A stretch of DNA of 64,000 nt from Moniliella sp. 'wahieum' (lineage: Eukaryota), in assembly GCA_003971905.1 (NCBI GenBank), contig RSEE01000015.1:124001-188000 (forward strand), written 5' to 3'. The position numbers and the translations under genes were made by a program. The notes under the pieces are model-generated. The model saw nothing but the letters and a program-made list of their open reading frames with translations. It searched no databases and was not told the DNA's origin. Shown here one piece after another: positions 8,626 to 54,670 of this stretch (positions within the stretch are counted from its first letter, which is position 1; every line of letters starts with the position of its first letter).

Positions 8626-9025
8626 TGTAACATCGTCCCTCATTGCGACGGGGTGGCTGGCTTCCCAGGCGGAGACCTTCCCTGCCCATTGGAGACAAGA
8701 CTCACGGAGGACTGAACGCGTTTCAGATCCAAAGTCCAAGGCTCACTGGCGTGAACGCAGGAGGGTCGTGAATGAGATGTTTTTTGCTGTACGTCGAGCA
8801 GAGCCTGAGCAGAGCGGTCTGCGAACAGAGGTTGCGTGTGTAGGGCCTGGACGGGAAAGCGGGGAGATCCGATGGGCGAGGGAGGGAGCGAGCTGATCGG
8901 AAGGTGTTTCTTCTAGAAGTGGAGTGCCCAGAAGAAGGGTGAAAGTGAAAGAATCCGAGAAGCGGTAGCGACGATAAGGAAGTGGAGGTGGCTGTGCATG
9001 GCGGCTCAGTCGTCGCCCCGTGACA
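8626..9025. mobile_element. Solo LTR (family A, copy 1)
   Basis: TGTAAC...GTGACA termini. Clearly homologous to 17835-18159 (shared gctggcttcccaggcggagacctt, agacaagactcacggagg, cgatgggcgagggaggg), and its 3' end matches 20120-20188. No TSD seen. Confidence 0.65.
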
Positions 9026-10622: not shown

Positions 10623-11571
10623 TCAAGCCGTAGCCTTGCCCTCACCAGGCTCGTTCGAAGCCTCGCCGGGCGGCAAAGACCGGTCAGCAAACAAGGAAGC
10701 CTTGGCAGAGAACAAGCCAAAGCGCTCGTAGTCCACGGACGAGATGTTGTAGACGTGGTACGGAAGCAGAACATGCTTCCCGAGTAGGTCCAAAACGCCG
10801 TAGTACACTTGCTCACTGTCCGGGGCAATGTTGTTTCCGCCCGAAGAGACGCCCCAAGCAATGATGTACACGATGCCAAACCACCAAACGCAATGCTCAT
10901 GGGCAGGTATGCCCAGTACACATCCTTGCCCGCCTTCTTAGCCGCAAGGAGAGCCGGGCCAAAGAGAACCCAGTACACCCATGTCAGCCGCAAAGACCAG
11001 CACGAACCAACCCACTTGTACGAGCTGGGCGTCAAAGCACCAAATAGTGACAGCGCCACCACCACTGTCTCAATAAGATGGTCATAAAAAGGGTAGAGAG
11101 GGGAACAGGCGACGCGAGCAGGATCGCCAAAAAATGAAAGGCGTCGAGACGGCCAGTCAATGTACCGAGAGAGCCTGAAGAGGAATCGAGCTGGAGGGTG
11201 AGCATACAGAATTCAATAAGGTGAATGATTACGAAACGTACCAGATTGAACGGGTGGCATCATTGTGCAATCCGTTGCCGTGTCCAGTCCAGGAGCCGGA
11301 TCGGAACTCGACAGTGACGGGAACGGCACCTAGGTTGGACGCAATGGCAAACCAGTTGAGGTGTTGCACGCAAGGGCTGCAACGATAAGATAGTGGAACG
11401 TCCGCTTCCCCGTGCCTGTTGCAAAGGAAGTGTAGGCGAGGGTGAACAGAAAGACCAGCATGGACACAGCGAAGATCGCCCATGAAAAGTCCGACCCCTG
11501 TACGTGTTGGTCACGTTAGCAGAGGCAGGGTTCGTGAGAACCGGACTTGATCCAGGGATGTGGGAGGGCAT
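10623..11571 (-). CDS. Fungal microbial rhodopsin/opsin, CarO-like (copy 1); intron 11175-11241
   Basis: Reconstructed across indels: GSDFSWAIF, PVTVEFRSGSW, RYIDWAVSTPFIFLA, SSYKW, GGNNIAPDSEQVYYGVLDLLGK (helix-G DxxxK), DYERFGL. Confidence 0.88.
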
Positions 11572-14500
11572 GTTTGGTAAGATGCGACCGAACGAAAGGC
11601 GGACACGGAAGGAATGATCAGATGGTGGAAGGGGAACTCCTTTTGCGGGACGGCGTTGATCAGGGGCGTCGGCTTAAAAGGAAATCCCAACATACCTCAG
11701 TAGGTATCGATGAATAAGTAGATGCAGTTCACGGTTTACGCGTTACGAGTTGCGCCTCCTCAGGCCTCGGGCCTCAGATCTATACAACGCATGTGGGTGT
11801 ATGTACATCTTTTTTTCGCGCCATGTGGATCAGTCCCTCGCAGGATCGATGATCGAGAGGCTGTGGGTGGTAGCGAACATCCCTTTGCTCTGGGTCTCAC
11901 ATCCGTATACCATCTGGCATCCTCTGGCAGTCCCAGAGCCATGCCACGAACATCAGAGCGCAGGACGGATGTCGAATTATGTCGGCGTGATGACTTCGAT
12001 GACTCCTACCGATTGGCACCCATCGATGTTGTGTTGCGGTGAAAAATACATGATGCGCATGATATGATCGAGATGTGGCTTGGCGACTCCCCCCGTTCAG
12101 AAAGATGCACAGCACAACACCCGTTCGTTGACCGGACTCAGCATGCACATCGTTCGTTGAACGTTGATTACTATACGAGACGTTTTGGGGGCCAAGAATA
12201 CGGGATGTCTCGTACGCAAAGTGTTGTCGCATTATTATATGGCACCGCGCAGTGCTCTGCAGATGGCGTTGGCATACATATGGTGCATGATGCATGACAT
12301 GCATATGACATGCGAAGCTTGAAGCCCTTTTCGCACGGGTCTCCCGCGCTGTAGCTTCACAGACAAAGACGGGGAGCTGGACGCCACAGGGGATTTCCTA
12401 TTTTGGCGTAGCATAATTCGCACGAATGCCACTGTGTGAGGATGTGCCGTTCATGCTGTCATCTCGATTTTGTCAGGCATGCAGGCCTGAGCCTCAGGCC
12501 TCCGACCCTGGGAAAGAGGCAGAGGTGGGGCCCTCGCATTTGTCGGCCTGATGGGGACGAGTCTCACACATTGTGTGTGCGAGTGGGGACGGCGCCCCCC
12601 GTTGACGGTCGCCTTTGTCATACTTTCCGTCAAGTACACCCAACGAAGCTGGCTCCAGAGCAGCACCACAAAAATAGCATCTAGTGCTGCGCAAACACAA
12701 AACAGCATGTCTTGAAGCTTGATCGGATTTCATCGACCCATCACACAAAAAATGAATGTTTTCTCACTACTTGTGGTGTTGTGAGCTGAGGGCCTGAGTC
12801 TCAAGACTTGGTGGCTGCGAGAGTGGGAGCCTGGACGTGATATGAGCGCAGGGTTCCTTTATCCAATGTGCGCAGGCCTTCCGGTGCGTTTTACGAACGC
12901 AGAGGAGTTCAACGATGTTAAATTCGATTCAATATTTAGGCAAACAAAGGTGTGCTCTTCACCTCTACGTTCGACATGGGCAGAACCGAGGAAATTGATA
13001 ACAAGTGATGGATGCTCGTTGGCTCTCATCTCATGCATCATTCACATCGTGCATCATGTCGCTGTCACATGTCACATGTCACACGGGCCGGGATATGAGG
13101 CCGAGGCCATATGAGGAGTGCGACTGGCTGTTCCGAGAAGACGGTTGAAAACGCTGTGGCGCGGTCAATATCACTGTCATCTATCGCAGGCCGGGTAGAT
13201 GCCACATGTCACATGTCACAGGTCACATGTCACGCCACTTTGGCTGTCCACCCAGAACCGAGAGCGGCAGGAGGCGGCAGGGGATGGCGCCGGATAAGGT
13301 CGGGCCGAAAACGCTCACTGTCCCACCACCCTTGACGTCACACAGTTGACGTGGGTTGCCGGTTATTAGGCGCTAGGCGTTGGTCGGCGCTCTTGCCTGC
13401 TCTTGCGGCTTGGCAGCGAACCGGAGCCGAACGAGGCTGCGCGTGGGACTACTGAGTACTGACTAGTGGCTGGTGAGTAGCTTGACTAGTGACTAGTAGT
13501 CTGCACGCCAACGTTCCATATATCATAGCCCAAACATCACACGTCCCCTTTTGCCTCCGCTTCTCGCAGGTGGGCGCTACGTTTTGGTGTCCGATCCATC
13601 TACAGATCCCTCCCCTACCGGCCACATCCTGCCACACCCCTGCCCCCTTTTGTGGAGGCTCTGCCAATGATTCATCATTCATGATTTAATGACATGAATG
13701 ACACACATCGTTTCTCGCCGCTCTCCTTGGATTGAAAAATGCAGCCGCCCGCTCCCGTCTTGTTCCCGTCCAGACCCGTCTCCTGTCCTCCTTTTGAACG
13801 TCCCAAAGCGTATTGAATTCACAGTCCATATGTTTCCTATCGTCTCCTCAGACCGTTGGACCGAGGCTTCAATTCAATGGCATTATTATCGACTCTTCAG
13901 GTCGCACACTATGTCAGCACTTTTTTCTAGTAACTAATTCCTCATTTTTGGCTGTAGACCGAAGAAAGCCGCGAGCACACCCACCAGCGCACGTGCTGTA
14001 CACATATGGCGAAGGAGACCGAATGCATGGAAGAAATCGAATGCTTGACGAATTGACCTCTTTTGTCTCCGTCGAAAGCACGGTACTCGACAGCTTTTGT
14101 GAAGAAGCTTTTTAAGCGCGCGCCCCACACCTCCTAAGGCCTCATTGGCCTCATTGCATCTAAAAAATCCGGCCATCGGCGTCGAGGCTGGGGGCTGGGG
14201 GTGTACCAGACCATAGTCAGTGCTGCGTGCTGCGCGCTGAGTTCAGCTTCAGCACTGAGCAGCGCTGAGCATACTCAGTCTGAGAGTACTCAACTCAGCG
14301 TTCAACTAACACTGAGTACTGAGTCTCAGTCACTCACTATTCATGCTGAGTCTGCGCAAAAAGCGCCTCCCCCGCAGGCGGCTGTCCTGTGTTGAAAAAA
14401 AAGTCTCCGCACACACCCCGCATGCTTGTCCCCTGACATGTGACACGCCAGGCATGTGACACTGTCTTGCCACATATCACACGTCCATGAGGCAGCGCTC

Positions 14501-15846
14501 AGCGTGAGCGCAGCACTCATATTGCGCTGGCCTTCAAGCTGTACTACTAGTTACTAGTTACTAGCTGCATGCAGCAGACCTCAGATCCTCCAATCTCACA
14601 GGGTATAACACAAACTGGCGTGATCTCTGTTGGTGCGCGGAGAGGACATTCAGGCCCAGGATCATATAGGGCAGCTGATGATGCTCAAGAGGATGCTCAT
14701 GATGCTGATGCCCCTGCTGATGGTCATGCTGTGATGCTCATGTCTGAGGTCTGGATCTGACGACCTTTCCCATCCGCTAACCGGGGGCGCATGTGCCCAC
14801 TCCGGTCCCTGTGGATCCGATGCGGATCAGCCTGGAGCCGCGGCGCGGAACTTGTGACGTTGACTGGTTGTCCACAGAAAGTGCGTATAAGGTGCATGAA
14901 GAGTCCTGTGAATCTTCATCACATTGTTCATGTTCATCCATACGCCCTTCGGCTTCGCGGCGCACCGGTGCATCACCTCTCAGATATCAGTGTTTCCCCA
15001 GGGCCTGCGCTACCTTGCTCAAGCGCAGCGCTACATGAGAATGGGCCTGAGGATCTGAGCTCACAAAGGCCTACAGCCCATCCCGATCCAACCCGCAATG
15101 GAGGCAAGAGTGGCCCGAATGCTTGTTGCGCTCGGCCGGCGCTTCCCTGTGAGAGGATCGACGCTCAGAACGTAGTGAAGAGCGACTATTAGTGACTAGG
15201 GAACATTGTTGACCCATTGGGCAATGCTAGGCCTGCTACGCCCTGCCGGCCTGCTCCCGGGACCGAGGTTGGAAAGTGAAGTCTGTGTGAAGGCGCGGCA
15301 AGAAAGTCGGGGCAGAAGCAGCTACTGAGTAATGAGCGCGCGGAGAGCACCCATCCTCACTGGGCCCGAGGCCCGAGCGCTTTATGGTCGGTTTGCGCTT
15401 GGCACTACTGTATCCATCGCCGAGGCGCCTGTGAGGAAGAACATACTGAAGCTCCGTGCCCGGCTCTCCCATCACGCACGTCCTGCCAGGATCCTGGCTG
15501 TAAGCAGGGCGGAGCCACCCGACGGCACCGAGTTACTACGGTATCTATGGTCCAGCTGCCCCTCTGCCCGCCAGGACCTACCGTTCTCTCTGCCTCGGCC
15601 TGCGCACGACTGATGGTAGACTAGCCAACACAGGCCCACATTAATTGGGTCCATGGGATATATATATTTGCCCCCTCCTCCGTCCCATCCAGCCCATCCC
15701 TCCATACACCGGCTTTCGTCGCGTTTCCCTCTACCCCTATCAACTCAGCAACCCAGCCAACTCCTCTCGCTGCCTTCCCCACCCGTTCTTCACCACACCG
15801 CCCTTCCGCGCCTTTTTTTTTCTTTCCTTCAGCTGCCTACACTACA

Positions 15847-16845
15847 ATGTCTGTCGCCTGGCTCTCTCCACGCGACTCGGTGAAGACGAACCCCGTCGCC
15901 GCCGATGTCACTGTCAACTCGCACGGCTCGGACTTTGCCTGGGCCGTCTTTGCGGTTCAAGCCGTTGTCTTTTTGGGCTTGTCGTTGTACACATTTTTCT
16001 CCGTGAACCGTGGTCACCGTACCTTTAACTACCTCGTGGCTGCTACCCTGGCCTGCAGCATGCTCAACTGGTAACGCTTGCTTCCGACATCGGCGGGATC
16101 CCTGTCACGGTCGAGTTCCGCTCGGGCTCCTGGACGGGCAAAGGCAGCGGCACGAACCATGCCGCGACGCGGGCCGTTTGGTACTTTTTGTCCGTCGTTC
16201 TCGTCATATATGTTCGCTCCTGTTTCCATGTCACGGTTATCCTAACAGTTAGGTGTTCTTAGGCTCTCGCGCTACCTTGACTGGCTGATTTCGACCCCCT
16301 TTGTTATCATTGCCATTCTTCTTGTCTCGCCCGTCCCCCTTTCGACCATCTTCATGACGGTCTTCGTTGAGACGGTCGCTGTGCTTTGTGCCCTGGGTGG
16401 TACCCTGACTGCCAGCAGTTACAAGTGGGGCTATTTCACGATTGGCGTGGCGGCCATGTCGGGCGTGCTCTGGGTGCTGTTTGGCCCGGCGCTGCTGGCT
16501 TGCAGGAAGGCGGGCAAGGATGTGTTCTGGGCGTACCTTCCCGTTGTCACTGGCTTTGCCGTGTGGACGGTGGTGTATATTATTGCCTGGGCGATGGCCG
16601 AAGGCGGCAACGTCATTTCCCCCGACGGCGAGTTCATCTACTACGGTGTGCTTGACATGGTTGCCAAGTCCCTCTCCCTGTGTTACTTTGTCTTCTGCGT
16701 CTCGGGTGTCGACTACGAACGCTTTGGTCTCTTCTCGAGTAAGGCTTCCATCTTTGCTTCCCCCGAGACCGTCCCGGGCGTTGCCTCGGCTGCCCCTGCC
16801 GAGGTGGCGGCGCCGGCTACCACCAAGGAAGCCGAGGAGGCCTAA
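15847..16845 (+). CDS. Fungal microbial rhodopsin/opsin, CarO-like (copy 2); intron 16181-16262
   Basis: GSDFAWAVF, PVTVEFRSGSW, RYLDWLISTPFVIIA, SSYKWGYF, EGGNVISPDGEFIYYGVLDMVAK. The intron is at the same codon position as in copy 1. Confidence 0.92.
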
Positions 16846-17834: not shown

Positions 17835-18159
17835 TGTAACGGGGTCGCTGGCTTCCCAGGCGGAGACCTTTCCTGCCCATCGAAGACAAGACTCACGGAG
17901 GAATGAACGCGTTTCGGTTCCAAAGTCCAAGAAACACTGGTGTGAACGTAGGAAGAGGGTCGCGAGTAGTGCTTTGGTGTTCGTCGGGCAGAGCCAGACA
18001 AGAGGAGGTTGCACGTTAGGGGCCGAACGAGAGAGCGGGGAGTCCCGATGGGCGAGGGAGGGCAAGCGAGCTGATCGAAAAGGTGGTTCTTCTAGAGTGG
18101 AGTTCGCCTAGAAGAAGGATGAAGGGAAAAGTGAATGGTTGGCGGCTTAGGCCATCACA
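17835..18159. mobile_element. Solo LTR (family A, copy 2)
   Basis: Starts TGTAAC and ends ...ATCACA. Diverged direct-repeat homolog of 8626-9025. Confidence 0.6.
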
Positions 18160-19236: not shown

Positions 19237-20188
19237 TGTGAGTAAGAGTCAGCGCTCAGCATGCCAGACAACTTGCCGCTGATATTTTCCGCGGAGAGCC
19301 AGGAAAGGACTGTGGACTTATTAACGGTACGAAGCTTCGTATCCGCGGCGCCCAGTCTTGGTAGAATCCCACATCTACTGCGCCCAACAGCTCGCATTAT
19401 GGGCAGAACAGGCCGCTCTTTACCTCTTACTACTGTAGATTTTCCCTTTCTTCTGTTGATGCCTGTTCTGATGTTAGTTACACTATGTAAGCAGCACTGT
19501 CTGAGGCTTGCTGTGGCGGTGATCCTCACCGCCCAAAACCCACGTCTTCCCCCGACTTTCCTCCTCACCCTTACGTTTACCAATATACGACTTACGTCGA
19601 GACTGCAAGCTTCGGTTACTATCAGTAGCGCTTGCTCTTCTTTAGGACTCTATCTGTTCCCGCCTACTAAAGCGTACCGAGTGTGGTAACGCCGAGAGGA
19701 ACAGAGTAACTTCGGAGATCCTGGACCCTTTCAATTGGTCTTACGACCTACGTACGGGGCTCCTACCTCGGAGGGTTTGAGCTGCGGCCTTTGCACGCAG
19801 GCAGCCACCCAAACTAGAGGGTCTCTCCCTTGCCTCTACACCCGCTCAGTTCAACCAGGATCTGAAGCAGGACCTAACGTACGTAACTCTAATGCCATGT
19901 CCAAGGGCTTTCACCCATAAATTCCGGTTGGGGTCGGGCTCCGTCTCGGGGCTCGCCCATGACATGTGTGTGTTTTGGATTTTATTAGACGAGTCAAGTG
20001 ACTAGTGACTATAGTGAGCGGAGAAGAGACGATTGTTGTGGGTTTTATAGATACTAGGCCGAGAATCCGAGTCACGATGGCGAAAGATAGGGAACTTGAG
20101 TAGTGATAGGAAGAGAAGCCGAGAAGCGAGAGCGACGATAAGGAAGTGGAGGTGACTGTGTAAAGCGACTTATCGTCGCTCCACGACA
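19237..20188. mobile_element. Cluster of LTR-like remnants
   Basis: Abutting TG...CA segments. 20120-20188 (cgagaagcg..agcgacgataaggaagtggaggtg...tcgtcgc..ca) matches the end of LTR 8626-9025. Confidence 0.4.
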
Positions 20189-40509: not shown

Positions 40510-41201
40510 GGGATGTGTCGCCTGTGCAACCCCCTGGCTCGCTCCCACCACCCTCCCTTTCGTCATTTGTTTGCCCTTGCACTTCCTTTGCCTCTTTGTT
40601 CCCCCCCCCTCCCACCCGCCTATTCCCTTACCACAAACCCTGGCATGCCGGGGCCAGCTGTATGACTTCCTACGATACATAGTCAGCAACGGATCGATGC
40701 TTGACCTTTTTGGTGTTGTGTTGGGCGAACCAGAGTAGCAGGCGCACTCCCTTCACCGACAAGGCGGGATGGCATATCGAGGACTACCGCTCCCTAGCAT
40801 GCAGCAGGACTCTTTCACTGTCACTATTGTTCTTTAGAAGGAGTATGCGCACCGCCACCACCATTCCGGCTACATTATTGACGCAAAGGTTGCCACGTCT
40901 GCGCCACCAGCATCTCGATCCCAACGTCCAGCTTGTTCATACTGCCGGCACTGGGGCGCCCCCGATTAAAACATCCCGTCTCATAACTTGACCGATTCTA
41001 ACAGGCTACGAGAGAAAAGAGGTAACACCTAATCGATGCAATACGAGCCTAGCGTTGGCAGGTACCAAAGCAAAGACAGGGGAAGACAGGGGTTTACAAG
41101 CACACTCCGAGGCTTGCTCTCGGGCAAGGGGATTTTGATGAAGCCCAAGCCAAGCCGGCAAAATGACGACTCGACGAGGGAAAGCAGGCGAAGGAGCTCG
41201 G

Positions 41202-42672
41202 TTACTTCTTCTTGCCGGCCTTCTCAGCGGCCTTGGTGGTCTTGCCACCCTTGCCGGAGGTCTTCTCAACCGACTTGATGACACCGACAGCCACGGTCTG
41301 GCGCATGTCACGGACGGCGAAACGGCCAAGCGGAGGTACTCGTTGAAGGCCTCAACGCACATGGGCTTGGTGGGGATCATCTTGACCATGGCGGCGTCAC
41401 CCGACTTGATGAACTTGGGGGTCTCCTCAATGGTCTTACCCGAACGACGGTCCATCTTGGTAAGGATGGAGTCGAACTTGCAAGCAATGTGGGCCGTGTG
41501 GCAGTCAAGAACGGGCGAGTAGCCGTTCGAGATCTGGCCAGGGTGGTTCATGATGATGACCTGGGCGTTGAACGAGGCAGCCTCCATAGGGGGGTCGTTC
41601 TTCGAGTCACCAGCAACGTTGCCACGGCGGATGTCCTTGACCGAGACGTTCTTGACGTTGAAACCAACGTTGTCACCGGGGAGACCCTCGGGGAGCGACT
41701 CGTGGTGCATCTCGACGACTTGACTTCAGTGGTCACGTTCGCGGGAGCGAAAGTAACGACCATGCCGGGCTTGATCACACCCGTCTCGACACGGCCGACG
41801 GGGACAGTGCCGATACACCGATCTTGTACACGTCCTGCAGGGGGAGACGCAGGGGCTTGTCGGTGGGGCGCGAGGGGGGGTCAATGGCGTCGATGGCGTC
41901 AAGGAGGGTCTTGCCGGCCTTGCCAGCCTTGGTCTCTTCTCCCAACCCTTGTACCAGGGCATGTTGGTGGTGGCCTCAATCATGTTGTCACCGTTCCAGC
42001 CCGAGATGGGGACAAAGGGAACCGACTTGGGGTTGAAGCCGACCTTCTTGATGAAGGTCGAGGTCTCCTTGATGATCTCGTTGAAGCGGTCCTCCGAGTA
42101 CTTGGTGGCGTCCATCTTGTTGACGGCAACAATGAGCTGGCGCACACCAAGGGTGAAGGCGAGCAGGGCGTGCTCACGGGTCTGGCCGTCCTTGGAGATA
42201 CCAGCCTCGAACTCACCAGTGCCGGCGGCAATGATGAGAATGGCGCAGTCGGCCTGCGAGGTACCCGTGATCATGTTCTTGATGAAGTCACGGTGGCCGG
42301 GGGCGTCAATGACAGTGACCTGGTACTTGGGGGTCTCGAACTTCCACAGGGCAATGTCGATGGTGATACCACGCTCACGCTCAGCCTTGAGCTTGTCGAG
42401 CACCCAGGCGTACTTGAACGAACCCTTGCCGAGCTCAGCAGCCTCCTTCTCGAACTTCTCGATGGTACGCTTGTCGATACCACCGCACTTGTAGATGAGG
42501 TGGCCGGTCGTGGTCGACTTGCCCGAGTCGACGTGGCCGATGACAACGACGTTAACGTGAAGCTGGAAAAAGAACGGTGGTTAGCATCCGTTGGCCGACC
42601 GCACTGGCGGTGAGGTGGAGTGGGCCAAGAGGGGAGGGAGCCAAACGCAAGACGTACCTTTTCCTTACCCAT
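41202..42672 (-). CDS. TEF1: Translation elongation factor 1-alpha; intron 42563-42657
   Basis: [88 protein letters not shown]; ends AGKKK. Strong codon bias. Confidence 0.99.
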
Positions 42673-46474: not shown

Positions 46475-46802
46475 TGTTAGAGGGTACTGCTAGGGTTCTC
46501 CTGCGCGGCCCTCAATGGATCGGTGACGCTCGCCTAGCCGAGCGGAAGCGTTCCGCTCGCAGGCCGCGCACGCCCTGCTCGCTCCATCTCCCTTCTCTCT
46601 CTCCTTTCTCCTTCCCTTCAAACGTTGCTTGAAGACTTGTGGCTCACCACTTTGCTGTGAGAAGGCACAGCCCGGGGGAAATAGTGAGGAAAGAAGAGAC
46701 TCGAATGGGATTCGAACCCATGTCATCGCCTATTGGCCAGGGATGCGTTACCACTACGCTATCGAGCCGGGATAAGAGCAGCTGCAGGATCACAGTCTAA
46801 CA
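46475..46802. mobile_element. 328-bp solo LTR-like element containing a tRNA-like sequence
   Basis: Perfect 7-bp inverted termini TGTTAGA...TCTAACA. An internal block (acgttgcttgaagactt..ggctcaccactttgc) recurs at about 46869-46900 in an adjacent fragment ending ...ATAACA. Confidence 0.65.
46697..46768 (-). tRNA. tRNA-like/pseudo-tRNA, anticodon ambiguous (CCA or GCC)
   Basis: GGCTCGA/TCGAGTC acceptor stem, GCGT/ACGC D stem, ATGGG-TTCGAAT-CCCAT T arm. The anticodon arm is imperfect and no T-run terminator follows. Confidence 0.55.
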
Positions 46803-48227: not shown

Positions 48228-49907
48228 GTGGGCCGGGATGACTTCGTGGGTGTCGCCGCCAAGCCTGACTGGGTCGAGGCCGATGTGTTTGGACGTGATG
48301 TTGATCCTGAGACGCACCGTCACAAGCTCAAGTTGCCATTCGGGGAGGTGAAATGCCGTTACTGCAAAGCTTACACGTTTGCAGAAGAACACACCCGGAA
48401 TTCGTCCCAAAGAGATCCCCGCTTCTCTATATATGCTGCAAGGAAGGTGCGTTCATCTTCCACTTATTTGTCCTACTCTTCTAACCCTCAGCATTTAGGC
48501 AAAGTTAACCTTCCCAAACCGAAGCCATGCCATCCCCTGTACAACCTCTTTGGACGCAACCGTGACGGCTTCCGGCGAGCCACAGAAGAGTTGTCCAAAA
48601 TACGCGTACAATGGAACGTTGGCCTTCACGTTGTGGATTGCCAAGTACGTCCGTCGCTTGGCAAGTGGTGCTGCCGGGGGAGTGTATTCTTTGGTCCTTC
48701 ATGACACTGCTTCTACTGCCGTTGGACCCCTCTATCCTGCCACGTACCACGAAGGCAACCAGGAACCCGCCCCGCCGGGGCAGGAGAATGGCCCTCGCTA
48801 TGCACAGCTCTGGCCCATGGAGTTCGAAGCCCAAGCCGCTCAAATGACCCAAAATGCCTCTACCTTAGGTCAAACACTCAATACATCAATCCTGCAGTCC
48901 ATCATGAATATTCTCCTGGATGTATGCTGCAATTTCTTTTTGCGCACCTACGCTACCCGTTCGTGATATTATTCTACGCAACCCAGAGACCCCTCCCGTT
49001 GCGGTGACATTTAGGGGAGAGAATTATGGCCAGCGGCAATACAACCGTCCCACTTCCTCCGAAATGGCGATCATTATGCCTGGCATGGAGGATGATGACG
49101 ACGGCGCCGAGTTGGCATCACGTTGTGCTGTTCTGCAGAAAAAATGATGCTCCAGGAATCGTCTACGTCAACGCACTAAACTCTTTCTATGATCCCTTGC
49201 ATTTCGTCTTACTCTTCCCGTACGGCGATCGAGGGTGGGGCCCGCGTCAGACCAAGCTTCGAACCAAAAGGGAAATCAGGGCCCTTGACAAAGAAATCGA
49301 TGCTCGCCACACCAATGCCCGAGCAGCCCCGCAGGAAGAGCCAAATGCCACACCTGCAACACCAGCCACACAGCATGATACCAACAATGGCGCACCAGAA
49401 CGCACCCCTCCCGCCCATCAAAATCGTCTGGTCATCATTGGTCCTGAGGGCAGAACGATTATGAACACGCAAGGGGAACGTGTCCCCTTCCAGGACAACA
49501 ACCCGCCCCCTCCTCATCAACTTCGCCATGCTCCGGACAACCACGTTGTGCCTACGAACGACCACACGCGCTTCCATATGATGCAGCGGGATGATTGGCA
49601 AGATGAGAATGGGAAATGGTATCCTTGGGTGCTAAAGTGGGACCGGATCAAAGATGAATGGGTCCTTGACGGTTATTCGGAAACAGAGGGACAACGCCTG
49701 GTTTACATTCGGAAAACCCAGGACACGTTGCGCACCGAAATGGTTGCCGGCGTGGTCGATGCTCTGGCCAACGACCCGAACGCTCGCGGGGCCGATGTCG
49801 GTGTTCCTGTCCTCCTGCCCGCCTCTTTCACAGGCGGACCGCGGTGCAAGCAAAAGACCTATCAGGATGCAATGGCCATCTGCCCGGCGAGGGCATGGAA
49901 AAAGTGA
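48228..49907 (+). mobile_element. Helitron RepHel 5' fragment, truncated; intron 48447-48498
   Basis: CRYCKA...CCKEGKV zinc-finger-like region, YNRPTSSEMAII, YDPLHFVLLFPYGDRGW, YIRKTQDTLR, LPASFTGGPR...YQDAMAI. No Rep catalytic or helicase motifs follow. Confidence 0.88.
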
Positions 49908-54576: not shown

Positions 54577-54670
54577 TGGTCAATATGAGGCTTGAACTCA
54601 TGACCTTGGCATTACCAATACTCCGGAAGACGTATTAGTACCACGCTCTGACCAACTGAGCTAATCGACC
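54577..54670 (-). tRNA. tRNA-Ile(AAT) with a 20-nt canonical intron
   Basis: GGTCGAT/ATTGACC acceptor, GCTC/GAGC D stem, TGGTA-CT-AAT-A-[CGTCTTCCGGAGTATTGGTA]-A-TGCCA anticodon arm, ATGAG-TTCAAGC-CTCAT T arm, followed by a T6 terminator. Confidence 0.95.

What the first reader, a model, noticed from the sequence alone, without database searches (positions are those of the whole stretch)
10623..16845. Head-to-head pair of fungal rhodopsins with a D-S-A helix-C motif and intact D212/K216
Seen: RYLDWLISTPFVIIA and RYIDWAVSTPFIFLA (the latter needs two 1-nt indel corrections) place D, S and A at bacteriorhodopsin positions 85/89/96. Helix G has DMVAK (16654-16668) and DLLGK (10776-10790). Established: fungal pumps such as CarO and Leptosphaeria rhodopsin are DTD, and opsin-related proteins (Hsp30/Yro2/Mrh1) lack the Lys. 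DSA occurs in some xenorhodopsins, but these have Pro at position 212. Inference: this is a donor-less, Lys-retaining fungal subfamily that may be sensory, slow-cycling or transport something else.
Basis: partly seen in the sequence, partly recalled or inferred. Interest (0 to 1): 0.72.

Follow-up and report, generated by a model that had tools for sequence, protein, structure and literature searches.

The report
Fungal opsin pair, remodelled retinal pocket
Two back-to-back fungal relatives of the light-driven proton pump bacteriorhodopsin keep the lysine that normally holds the light-absorbing pigment but have lost the parts needed for pumping, in a fungus with no detectable genes for making that pigment, so they may be working without light.

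Summary
Confirmed. Two intron-containing type-1 opsin genes sit head to head, with D-S-A at BR 85/89/96 and intact D212/K216. The motif is no assembly error: it recurs in 11 of 11 copies in this hybrid-like genome (three paralogues), under purifying selection. W182, P186 and M118 (kept in 136, 138 and 136 of 138 pump-like fungal opsins) are all lost, so the hinge that turns retinal isomerisation into helix-F opening is gone. The genome holds no canonical opsin and no detectable carotenoid oxygenase, lycopene cyclase or phytoene synthase, though photolyases and LOV proteins are found. The clade is a long-branch offshoot of smut-type CarO-like opsins, not of Hsp30/Yro2 proteins. Donor-less, Lys-keeping fungal opsins are already known (Ustilago Ops3, no photocurrent), so that part is not new; DSA plus the remodelled pocket is. 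Best reading (0.45): a non-pumping opsin working without retinal, like Yro2/Mrh1. Close rival (0.35): a blue-shifted, slow, retinal-bound sensor. The scan noted this lineage before on another piece of this genome (e1-7650078).

The parts
15847..16180 (+). Opsin A exon 1 (N-terminus, helices A-B, B-C loop); one 1-nt deletion near 16073, most likely a sequencing error
   Evidence: the C39 copy has the base
16181..16262 (+). 82-nt GT-AG intron just before helix C; same position in all 11 copies (62-92 nt)
16263..16845 (+). Opsin A exon 2, helices C-G and C-terminal tail; open frame
   Evidence: PF01036 44.2 bits, cut-off 24.6
16270..16314 (+). Helix C of A: R82, D85, W86, S89, T90, P91, V93, A96 (DSA motif)
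16369..16392 (+). Helix D of A: E115, A118, A122 (pump-like opsins: D, M, G)
16564..16590 (+). Helix F of A: W181, T182, Y185, I186, W189 (W182 and P186 lost)
16654..16668 (+). Helix G of A: D212 and K216 (DMVAK)
11242..11571 (-). Opsin B exon 1 (with 1-nt deletions)
11175..11241 (-). 67-nt GT-AG intron of opsin B
10623..11174 (-). Opsin B exon 2, helices C-G. DSA motif at 11167-11125; V118, S122, G182, I186, S194 (E194 lost); D212 and K216 at 10790-10776. Seven 1-nt deletions, each absent from the C39 copy
11572..15846 (.). Shared upstream region of the divergent pair, about 4.27 kb; no ORF of 200 aa or more; rich in short CTGAG/CTCAG, ACTAGT and TGTCAC repeats

Best explanation
These are functional seven-helix opsins, derived from a CarO-like (smut Ops1-type) proton pump, that no longer pump with light and most likely work in the cell without retinal, as membrane stress or pH proteins in the manner of yeast Yro2/Mrh1/Hsp30. 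Shown: loss of the proton donor (D96A), of T89 and L93, of the W182-P186 hinge of helix F and of M118; retention of R82, D85, D212 and K216; purifying selection; no canonical opsin and no detectable retinal pathway in the genome. Inferred: without donor and hinge, the cytoplasmic half-channel cannot open, so no pumping. Inferred, weaker: K216 is kept as a buried ion pair with D85/D212 rather than as a Schiff base. Inferred by analogy only: the job is weak-acid or proton homeostasis. On this reading the lineage is a convergent step towards an opsin-related protein that has not (yet) lost its lysine.
For: W182 is T/G/A and P186 is I/V in all 11 genomic copies, and the four unnamed Logan relatives also lack both. 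Among 138 pump-like hits W182 is kept in 136, P186 in 138, M118 in 136 and T89 in 138. In BR, P186V and P186L cut pumping to under one fifth and one half, and W182 is the residue pushed by retinal's C20 methyl (PMC13138192, passages). The genome gave 0 matches for the carotenoid oxygenase family PF03055 and 0 for the lycopene cyclase domain TIGR03462. The PF00494 loci read were squalene synthase or a protein with only a weak HpnD/SQS_PSY match, and CrtB NF042419 hit only the two squalene synthase loci at 22 bits. The same search found 16 photolyase/cryptochrome matches and six LOV domains with NCRFLQ, so it does find conserved genes here. A canonical-pocket relative (P0020) retrieved only the same 11 loci. 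Lys can outlast the pocket: 14 of 163 Lys-keeping opsins lost M118 and 13 of these carry a bulky residue at 122. dN/dS between sub-genomes is 0.06-0.25 at dS 0.67-1.06. Yro2/Mrh1 act in acetic-acid tolerance and Hsp30 regulates the H+-ATPase (as cited in PMC10139380 and PMC6942593, passages).
Against: K216 is invariant in 15 of 15 clade sequences while positions 215 and 217 take 4 and 5 different residues. Lys and the D85 acceptor are kept or lost together in 198 of 201 other opsins, which fits Schiff-base chemistry as well as an ion pair. The pocket is reshaped, not filled: 118 is A/V/T and 122 is G/A/S throughout, whereas 20 of 38 Lys-less proteins carry W/F/Y at 118. Gene A's A118/A122/G141 matches the engineered blue-shifting set (PMC4479019). 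The assembly is full of indels and of unknown completeness, and the tool warns that no match does not show absence. No fungal genome was available as a positive control. The blh-type search rang in no control and says nothing. A diverged CrtI-like gene is present. A bacterium without known retinal genes still makes retinal (PMC7734400, abstract). No link to acid stress was tested.
Confidence: 0.45

Rival explanations
1. A retinal-bound, non-pumping sensory or bistable rhodopsin, functionally like UmOps3. It would be blue-shifted by a twisted beta-ionone ring (small residue at 118, non-Gly at 122 in some copies) and slow-cycling for lack of a donor. Retinal would come from the environment or from an unrecognised enzyme.
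For: K216, D85, D212, R82, Y185 and E204 are present in 11 of 11 genomic copies; W86 in 10 of 11 (one TAG) and W189 in 9 of 11 (two lie in frameshifted stretches). The pocket is not filled with bulky residues. M118A/G122A/S141G is the published recipe for large blue shifts (PMC4479019; 'non-G rule' in PMC13739731). UmOps3 is a donor-less precedent, and grouping with its probable orthologue P0023 is not rejected (AU p = 0.21). The host keeps flavin photoreceptors.
Against: No retinal-making genes were found. W182 is replaced by small residues and P186 is lost, whereas the Ops3-like P0023 and 18 and 22 of 24 other donor-less opsins keep W182 and P186 respectively. Sensory signalling is generally thought to need helix-F movement too (own knowledge). 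No GATC-type enrichment upstream (4.1-5.0 per kb against 3.9 in the window).
Confidence: 0.35
2. K216 forms a Schiff base with an aldehyde other than retinal, so the proteins are ligand sensors or carriers with a pocket reshaped for that ligand.
For: This joins the two sets of facts that otherwise conflict: strict Lys/counterion retention with an open but reshaped pocket, and no detectable retinal pathway.
Against: No candidate ligand or neighbouring enzyme was found; the window genes checked are housekeeping. No precedent appeared in the papers read.
Confidence: 0.08
3. Still an outward proton pump, with weak organic acids standing in for the missing donor.
For: Acceptor and release-group acids (E/D194, E204) are kept in paralogues A and C. 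UmOps1 currents rise with acetate and IAA (PMC6467936). Rescue of donor-less BR by azide is recalled, not checked.
Against: The donor, the W182-P186 hinge and L93 are lost together. Paralogue B also lacks E194. UmOps3, with fewer losses, gave no current.
Confidence: 0.08
4. An inward proton pump or proton leak, by analogy with DSA xenorhodopsins.
For: DSA is a xenorhodopsin motif (PMC13739731). An AR3 triple mutant at 118/122/215 reversed its current (PMC4479019).
Against: Xenorhodopsins are defined by Pro at 212 and have no release group; here D212 and E204 are intact in 11 of 11 copies. The closest relatives are fungal CarO-side opsins.
Confidence: 0.04

Closest known systems
UmOps3 of Ustilago maydis (UMAG_04125) and its probable orthologue P0023 of Melanopsichium (orthology inferred from the shared Ser at D96 and kinship)
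   Same: CarO-like, basidiomycete, acceptor and Lys kept, donor replaced by a small neutral residue; predicted not to pump (UmOps3: no photocurrent, PMC6467936).
   Different: P0023 is DTS with M118, G122, W182 and P186 intact; this clade is DSA and lost M118, W182 and P186. The best trees do not pair them, although pairing is not rejected (AU p = 0.21).
CarO-like proton pumps (Fusarium CarO, UmOps1, ApOps1/2; Acaromyces and Melanopsichium DTE opsins)
   Same: Parent group in the tree (88/97 support); R82, D85, D212, K216, Y185, W189, E204 and the long B-C loop.
   Different: No donor; T89S, L93V/I, D115E/S, M118A/V/T, W182T/G/A, P186I/V, P217 lost, new Pro at the start of helix F.
Opsin-related proteins Hsp30/Yro2/Mrh1 and ORP-1
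   Same: Degenerate pocket, V/L/I at position 142, no pump motif; the proposed light-independent way of working.
   Different: They lack K216 and nearly always D85 (37 of 38) and tend to fill the pocket with bulky residues. Common descent with the Hsp30-type group is rejected (AU p = 0.0014).
Xenorhodopsins with DSA
   Same: Helix-C motif DSA (PMC13739731).
   Different: D212 instead of Pro; E204 kept; fungal CarO-side ancestry.
P0020 (unnamed NCBI protein, DTT)
   Same: Nearest relative found (SH-aLRT 96; 0.90); donor-less, Lys kept, similar C-D loop.
   Different: Keeps T89, D115, M118, G122, W182 and P186, which suggests donor loss came before pocket remodelling. The pairing is unresolved in the 37-row tree.

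Membership tests
Microbial (type 1) rhodopsin superfamily | BR-like helical bundle / PF01036 | tested here: met
   PF01036 above cut-off for three exon-2 proteins. Model of helices C-G of the C8 copy of A: pLDDT 86; best match CsR, rmsd 1.3 A over 141 columns. Helices A-B were not modelled.
Microbial (type 1) rhodopsin superfamily | Schiff-base Lys on helix G and counterions D85/D212 | tested here: met
   11 of 11 genomic copies; K216 in 15 of 15 clade sequences
Microbial (type 1) rhodopsin superfamily | Binds retinal and has a photoreaction | not testable with these tools
   Needs expression and spectroscopy
Microbial (type 1) rhodopsin superfamily | Host can supply retinal | tested here: inconclusive
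   No PF03055, TIGR03462 or phytoene synthase match; diverged CrtI-like gene present; assembly is error-rich and no fungal positive control was available
CarO-like outward proton pumps | DTD or DTE motif | tested here: not met
   DSA in 11 of 11 copies
CarO-like outward proton pumps | Conserved pocket and hinge M118, W182, P186 | tested here: not met
   Kept in 136, 136 and 138 of 138 pump-like hits; lost in every clade member
CarO-like outward proton pumps | Proton release group E194/E204 | tested here: inconclusive
   A and C have E/D194 and E204; B has S194 and E204
CarO-like outward proton pumps | Descent from the CarO-like clade | tested here: met
   Nested among basidiomycete CarO-side opsins (97/99) and in a smut-type subgroup (88/97); long branch, LG+G4 only
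Opsin-related proteins (Hsp30/Yro2/Mrh1, ORP-1) | Lys216 absent | tested here: not met
   Lys present
Opsin-related proteins (Hsp30/Yro2/Mrh1, ORP-1) | Member of the Hsp30/ORP clade | tested here: not met
   AU p = 0.0014 against grouping with four Hsp30-type rows; p = 0.06 against two basidiomycete-side Lys-less rows
Opsin-related proteins (Hsp30/Yro2/Mrh1, ORP-1) | Role in acid or heat stress | not testable with these tools
   Needs knock-outs or expression data
Xenorhodopsins | DSA, DTL or DTS motif | tested here: met
   DSA; motif list from PMC13739731
Xenorhodopsins | Pro at 212 and no release group | tested here: not met
   D212 and E204 in 11 of 11 copies
UmOps3-like donor-less opsins | Neutral residue at D96 with acceptor and Lys kept | tested here: met
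   Ala here, Ser in UmOps3
UmOps3-like donor-less opsins | Same clade as Ops3 | tested here: inconclusive
   The best tree separates them; AU p = 0.21. UmOps3 itself was not in the data; P0023 stood in.

The most novel reading that the evidence does not exclude
A fungal opsin family that has kept Schiff-base chemistry but swapped its ligand. In a host with no retinal pathway, K216 binds a non-retinal aldehyde (or a scavenged retinoid held in a twisted, blue-absorbing form) in a pocket that has lost the W182-P186 hinge. That would make a microbial opsin a chemical sensor rather than a light-driven pump.
Probability: 0.1. Interest if true: 0.85.

Novelty: new variant of a known kind. Interest (0 to 1): 0.52.

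Why it matters
What fungal opsin-related proteins do, and how they arose from light-driven pumps, is still open. This clade looks like a natural intermediate: donor lost first (sister P0020), then the pocket and hinge, with Lys and counterions still held by selection in three paralogues. One retinal-reconstitution experiment decides between an opsin that works in the dark and a natural blue-shifted, hinge-less rhodopsin. Either result tests the common rule that a helix-G lysine marks a true photoreceptor.

Tried and rejected
Assembly artefact: rejected, since DSA is in 11 of 11 copies and in Logan protein P0002. Pseudogenes: rejected. dN/dS is low, and window gene B differs from its C39 mate by pN 0.002 and pS 0.051 while carrying 8 private one-base deletions, the pattern of read errors; the eEF1A frame in the window is broken too. 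A recent loss of gene B in this sub-genome is not excluded (TAG at W86 on C39; one N-terminal deletion shared by C15 and C39). W181 as a shifted W182: phmmer gapped it so against Leptosphaeria rhodopsin but not against CsR. Helix F has the same length as in CarO-like proteins and position 181 is W, F or A across the clade, so I kept the ungapped reading; the model's side chains could not be inspected. Polishing and expression: no sequencing run was listed, which is no evidence either way. Longer or fused forms: none among 7997 candidates of 413-2000 aa (weak). JGI metagenomes: 80 of 157 relatives kept, best identity 42%, motif readable in 63 of 80, none DSA. ESM Atlas gave only general PF01036 clusters at 0.89-0.90. 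The blh search was uninformative. A light-response GATC cluster upstream was not enriched. The first look-up of earlier findings by sequence returned nothing.
Full report
Observation. Gene A runs 15847-16845 on the plus strand with one intron (16181-16262) and one missing base near 16073. Gene B runs 11571-10623 on the minus strand with an intron at 11241-11175 and 8 missing bases in its core, plus one near the start. Exon 2 of A translates openly and matches BR 81-216, CsR, Acetabularia rhodopsin I and Leptosphaeria rhodopsin. That fixes the numbering: D85, S89, A96, D212, K216. The C39 copy shows that gene B most likely reads RYIDWLVSTPFILLA; the motif is the same.

The genome. G000 (69.5 Mb, 223 contigs) holds 11 opsin loci: head-to-head A/B pairs on C15, C39, C8 and C23, each about 25 kb from an eEF1A gene, and a third paralogue on C15, C43 and C26. 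C15/C39 and C8/C23 are near-identical pairs (dS 0.03-0.05) that differ from each other at dS 0.67-1.0. This is the pattern of two sub-genomes with two haplotypes each (inference). All 11 copies have the same intron position, DSA, D212 and K216. dN/dS between sub-genomes is 0.22-0.25 (A), 0.08 (B) and 0.06 (C). The indels are nearly all private one-base deletions, and the eEF1A frame is broken too, so I read them as sequencing errors. A TAG at W86 in the C39 copy of B, and one N-terminal deletion shared by C15 and C39, leave a recent loss of B in that sub-genome possible.

Relatives. A word search found four close clusters, all unnamed Logan fragments at 53-74% identity. A profile search of 1.84 billion representatives found one cluster at 304 bits and the next at 141 (150 of 572 hits listed). 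JGI metagenomes gave nothing above 42%. The lineage is therefore narrow. For comparison I pooled the hits (120 of 1114 listed in the last), 273 proteins outside the clade. This set is biased towards best hits and ascomycete CarO-like pumps.

What changed. Among 138 pump-like proteins (D85, D/E96, D212, K216), T89 is kept in 138, L93 in 135, D115 in 135, M118 in 136, W182 in 136 and P186 in 138. The clade has S89, V/I93, E/S115, A/V/T118, T/G/A/V/L182 and I/V186, loses P217, and gains an invariant Pro at the start of helix F. Of 201 proteins with all key sites aligned (72 fragments or poorly aligned rows dropped), 163 keep Lys. None of these is DSA, 4 have a non-aromatic 182, 3 lack P186, and 3 differ at both. 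In BR, W182 is pushed by retinal's C20 methyl and P186 is the hinge that lets helix F open; P186V and P186L cut pumping sharply (PMC13138192, passages). With the donor gone as well, light-driven pumping is unlikely (inference).

What was kept. R82, D85, Y185, E204, D212 and K216 are in 11 of 11 copies; W86 is in 10 and W189 in 9, the misses being one stop and two frameshifted stretches. K216 is invariant in 15 of 15 clade sequences while its neighbours vary. Lys and acceptor are kept or lost together in 198 of 201 other opsins. That does not prove retinal binding: 14 Lys-keeping proteins lost M118, and 13 of them plug position 122 with a bulky residue. This clade differs from those in keeping 118 and 122 small. 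Window gene A has A118/A122/G141, the engineered blue-shift set (PMC4479019, passages; PMC13739731, passages and section 9 part 1). G141 is ordinary for CarO-like opsins, and only two copies have A122. This is the best evidence for the sensor rival.

Retinal supply. In smuts and Fusarium, retinal comes from Cco1/CarX (PMC5103461, passages). G000 gave no match for PF03055 (0 candidates) or the lycopene cyclase domain. PF00494 gave 7 matches at 5 places. The best scores as squalene synthase (409 bits), two more read as its copies, and two encode a protein with only weak HpnD/SQS_PSY matches that I take from recall to be NDUFAF6-like. CrtB hit only squalene synthase loci. Photolyases (16 matches) and LOV domains were found by the same tool, and a canonical-pocket query found no further opsin. 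Against this, the assembly is error-rich and of unknown completeness, no fungal control genome was on hand, a diverged CrtI-like gene sits on C19 and C14 (82 + 118 bits, cut-off 238), and unknown retinal routes exist in bacteria (PMC7734400, abstract).

Tree. The clade is fully supported on a long stem (0.76-0.86) inside basidiomycete CarO-side opsins, in a group with Acaromyces and Melanopsichium proteins (88/97; 37 rows). That also places the host among smut relatives (inference from the opsins only). P0020, a DTT protein with a canonical pocket, is sister in the 110-row and 24-row trees but unresolved in the 37-row tree, where its frameshifted tail was not cut. AU tests reject grouping with Hsp30-type proteins (p = 0.0014) and with the DST/DTA pair (p = 0.003). 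They do not reject grouping with the Ops3-like P0023 (p = 0.21) or with two Lys-less rows (p = 0.06). All trees used LG+G4 on hand-picked subsets, so long-branch pull is possible. UmOps1-3, NR and LR were not in the trees.

Comparison with what is known. UmOps3 is CarO-like, has Ser at D96, was called probably sensory and gave no photocurrent (PMC6467936, passages and section 18; its supplementary alignment was not read and may bear on positions 89, 182 and 186). A further 24 of 273 hits are donor-less with Lys, including Kwoniella DTT proteins. The four-clade scheme of fungal opsins is from PMC5796164 (passages); ApOps1-3 are all pumps (PMC8591190, passages). Roles of Yro2/Mrh1/Hsp30 were seen only as cited in reviews. 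Searches listed no paper on a fungal DSA opsin; the library lacks most subscription journals.

Mechanism and verdict. Shown: real, selected genes; pump machinery lost; Schiff-base residues kept; retinal genes not found. Inferred: no pumping (likely); work without retinal as a Yro2/Mrh1-like membrane protein (0.45), or as a blue-shifted slow sensor (0.35). Other ligand, acid-assisted pump and inward pump share the rest. It is not a member of the CarO pumps, the ORPs or the xenorhodopsins by their defining features, but it may work like an ORP or like UmOps3. It is a new variant of a known kind, testable with one reconstitution experiment; interest 0.52.

Noticed in passing
window 8648-8950 and 17839-18129 (also 8939-9016 and 20103-20179): A roughly 300-bp element occurs on both sides of the opsin pair in the same orientation (80% identical). 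A 72-75% copy lies downstream of gene B on C8 and C23 in the opposite relative orientation. No Rfam match; nature and copy number unknown.
   Followed up: partly
window 11572-15846: The shared upstream region is rich in CTGAG/CTCAG (6.8 per kb against 2.2 in the window; 9.5-11.3 on C8 and C23), ACTAGT and TGTCAC runs, although its sequence barely aligns between sub-genomes.
   Followed up: partly
L031/L032 (G000:C19:90369-92017) and L033 (G000:C14:278804-279851): A diverged CrtI-like FAD oxidoreductase with a C-terminal hydrophobic stretch, in a genome where no phytoene synthase was found. Substrate unknown.
   Followed up: partly
G000 as a whole: Looks like a hybrid with two sub-genomes and two haplotypes each; more than ten contigs carry high-identity eEF1A matches.
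   Followed up: partly
proteins P0039, P0042, P0058, P0063, P0067, P0085, P0089, P0113, P0119, P0140: Other opsins keep D/E85 and K216 yet have lost M118 and plug position 122 with a bulky residue, probably repeated independent steps towards retinal loss.
   Followed up: no
proteins P0007, P0200, P0215, P0218, P0272: Kwoniella opsins with a DTT motif and a canonical pocket: a donor-less group not met in the papers read.
   Followed up: no
window 46697-46768 and 54577-54670 (minus): Two tRNA genes.
   Followed up: no
window 49008-49907 (minus): An ORF with a stretch that resembles Helitron helicase-like proteins (recalled, not tested).
   Followed up: no
window 2338-62853: Other genes checked are ordinary: class V aminotransferase, protein kinase, Sec1 family, MARVEL, Iml2 and Pmp3 proteins, and eEF1A at 41006-42580.
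   Followed up: partly
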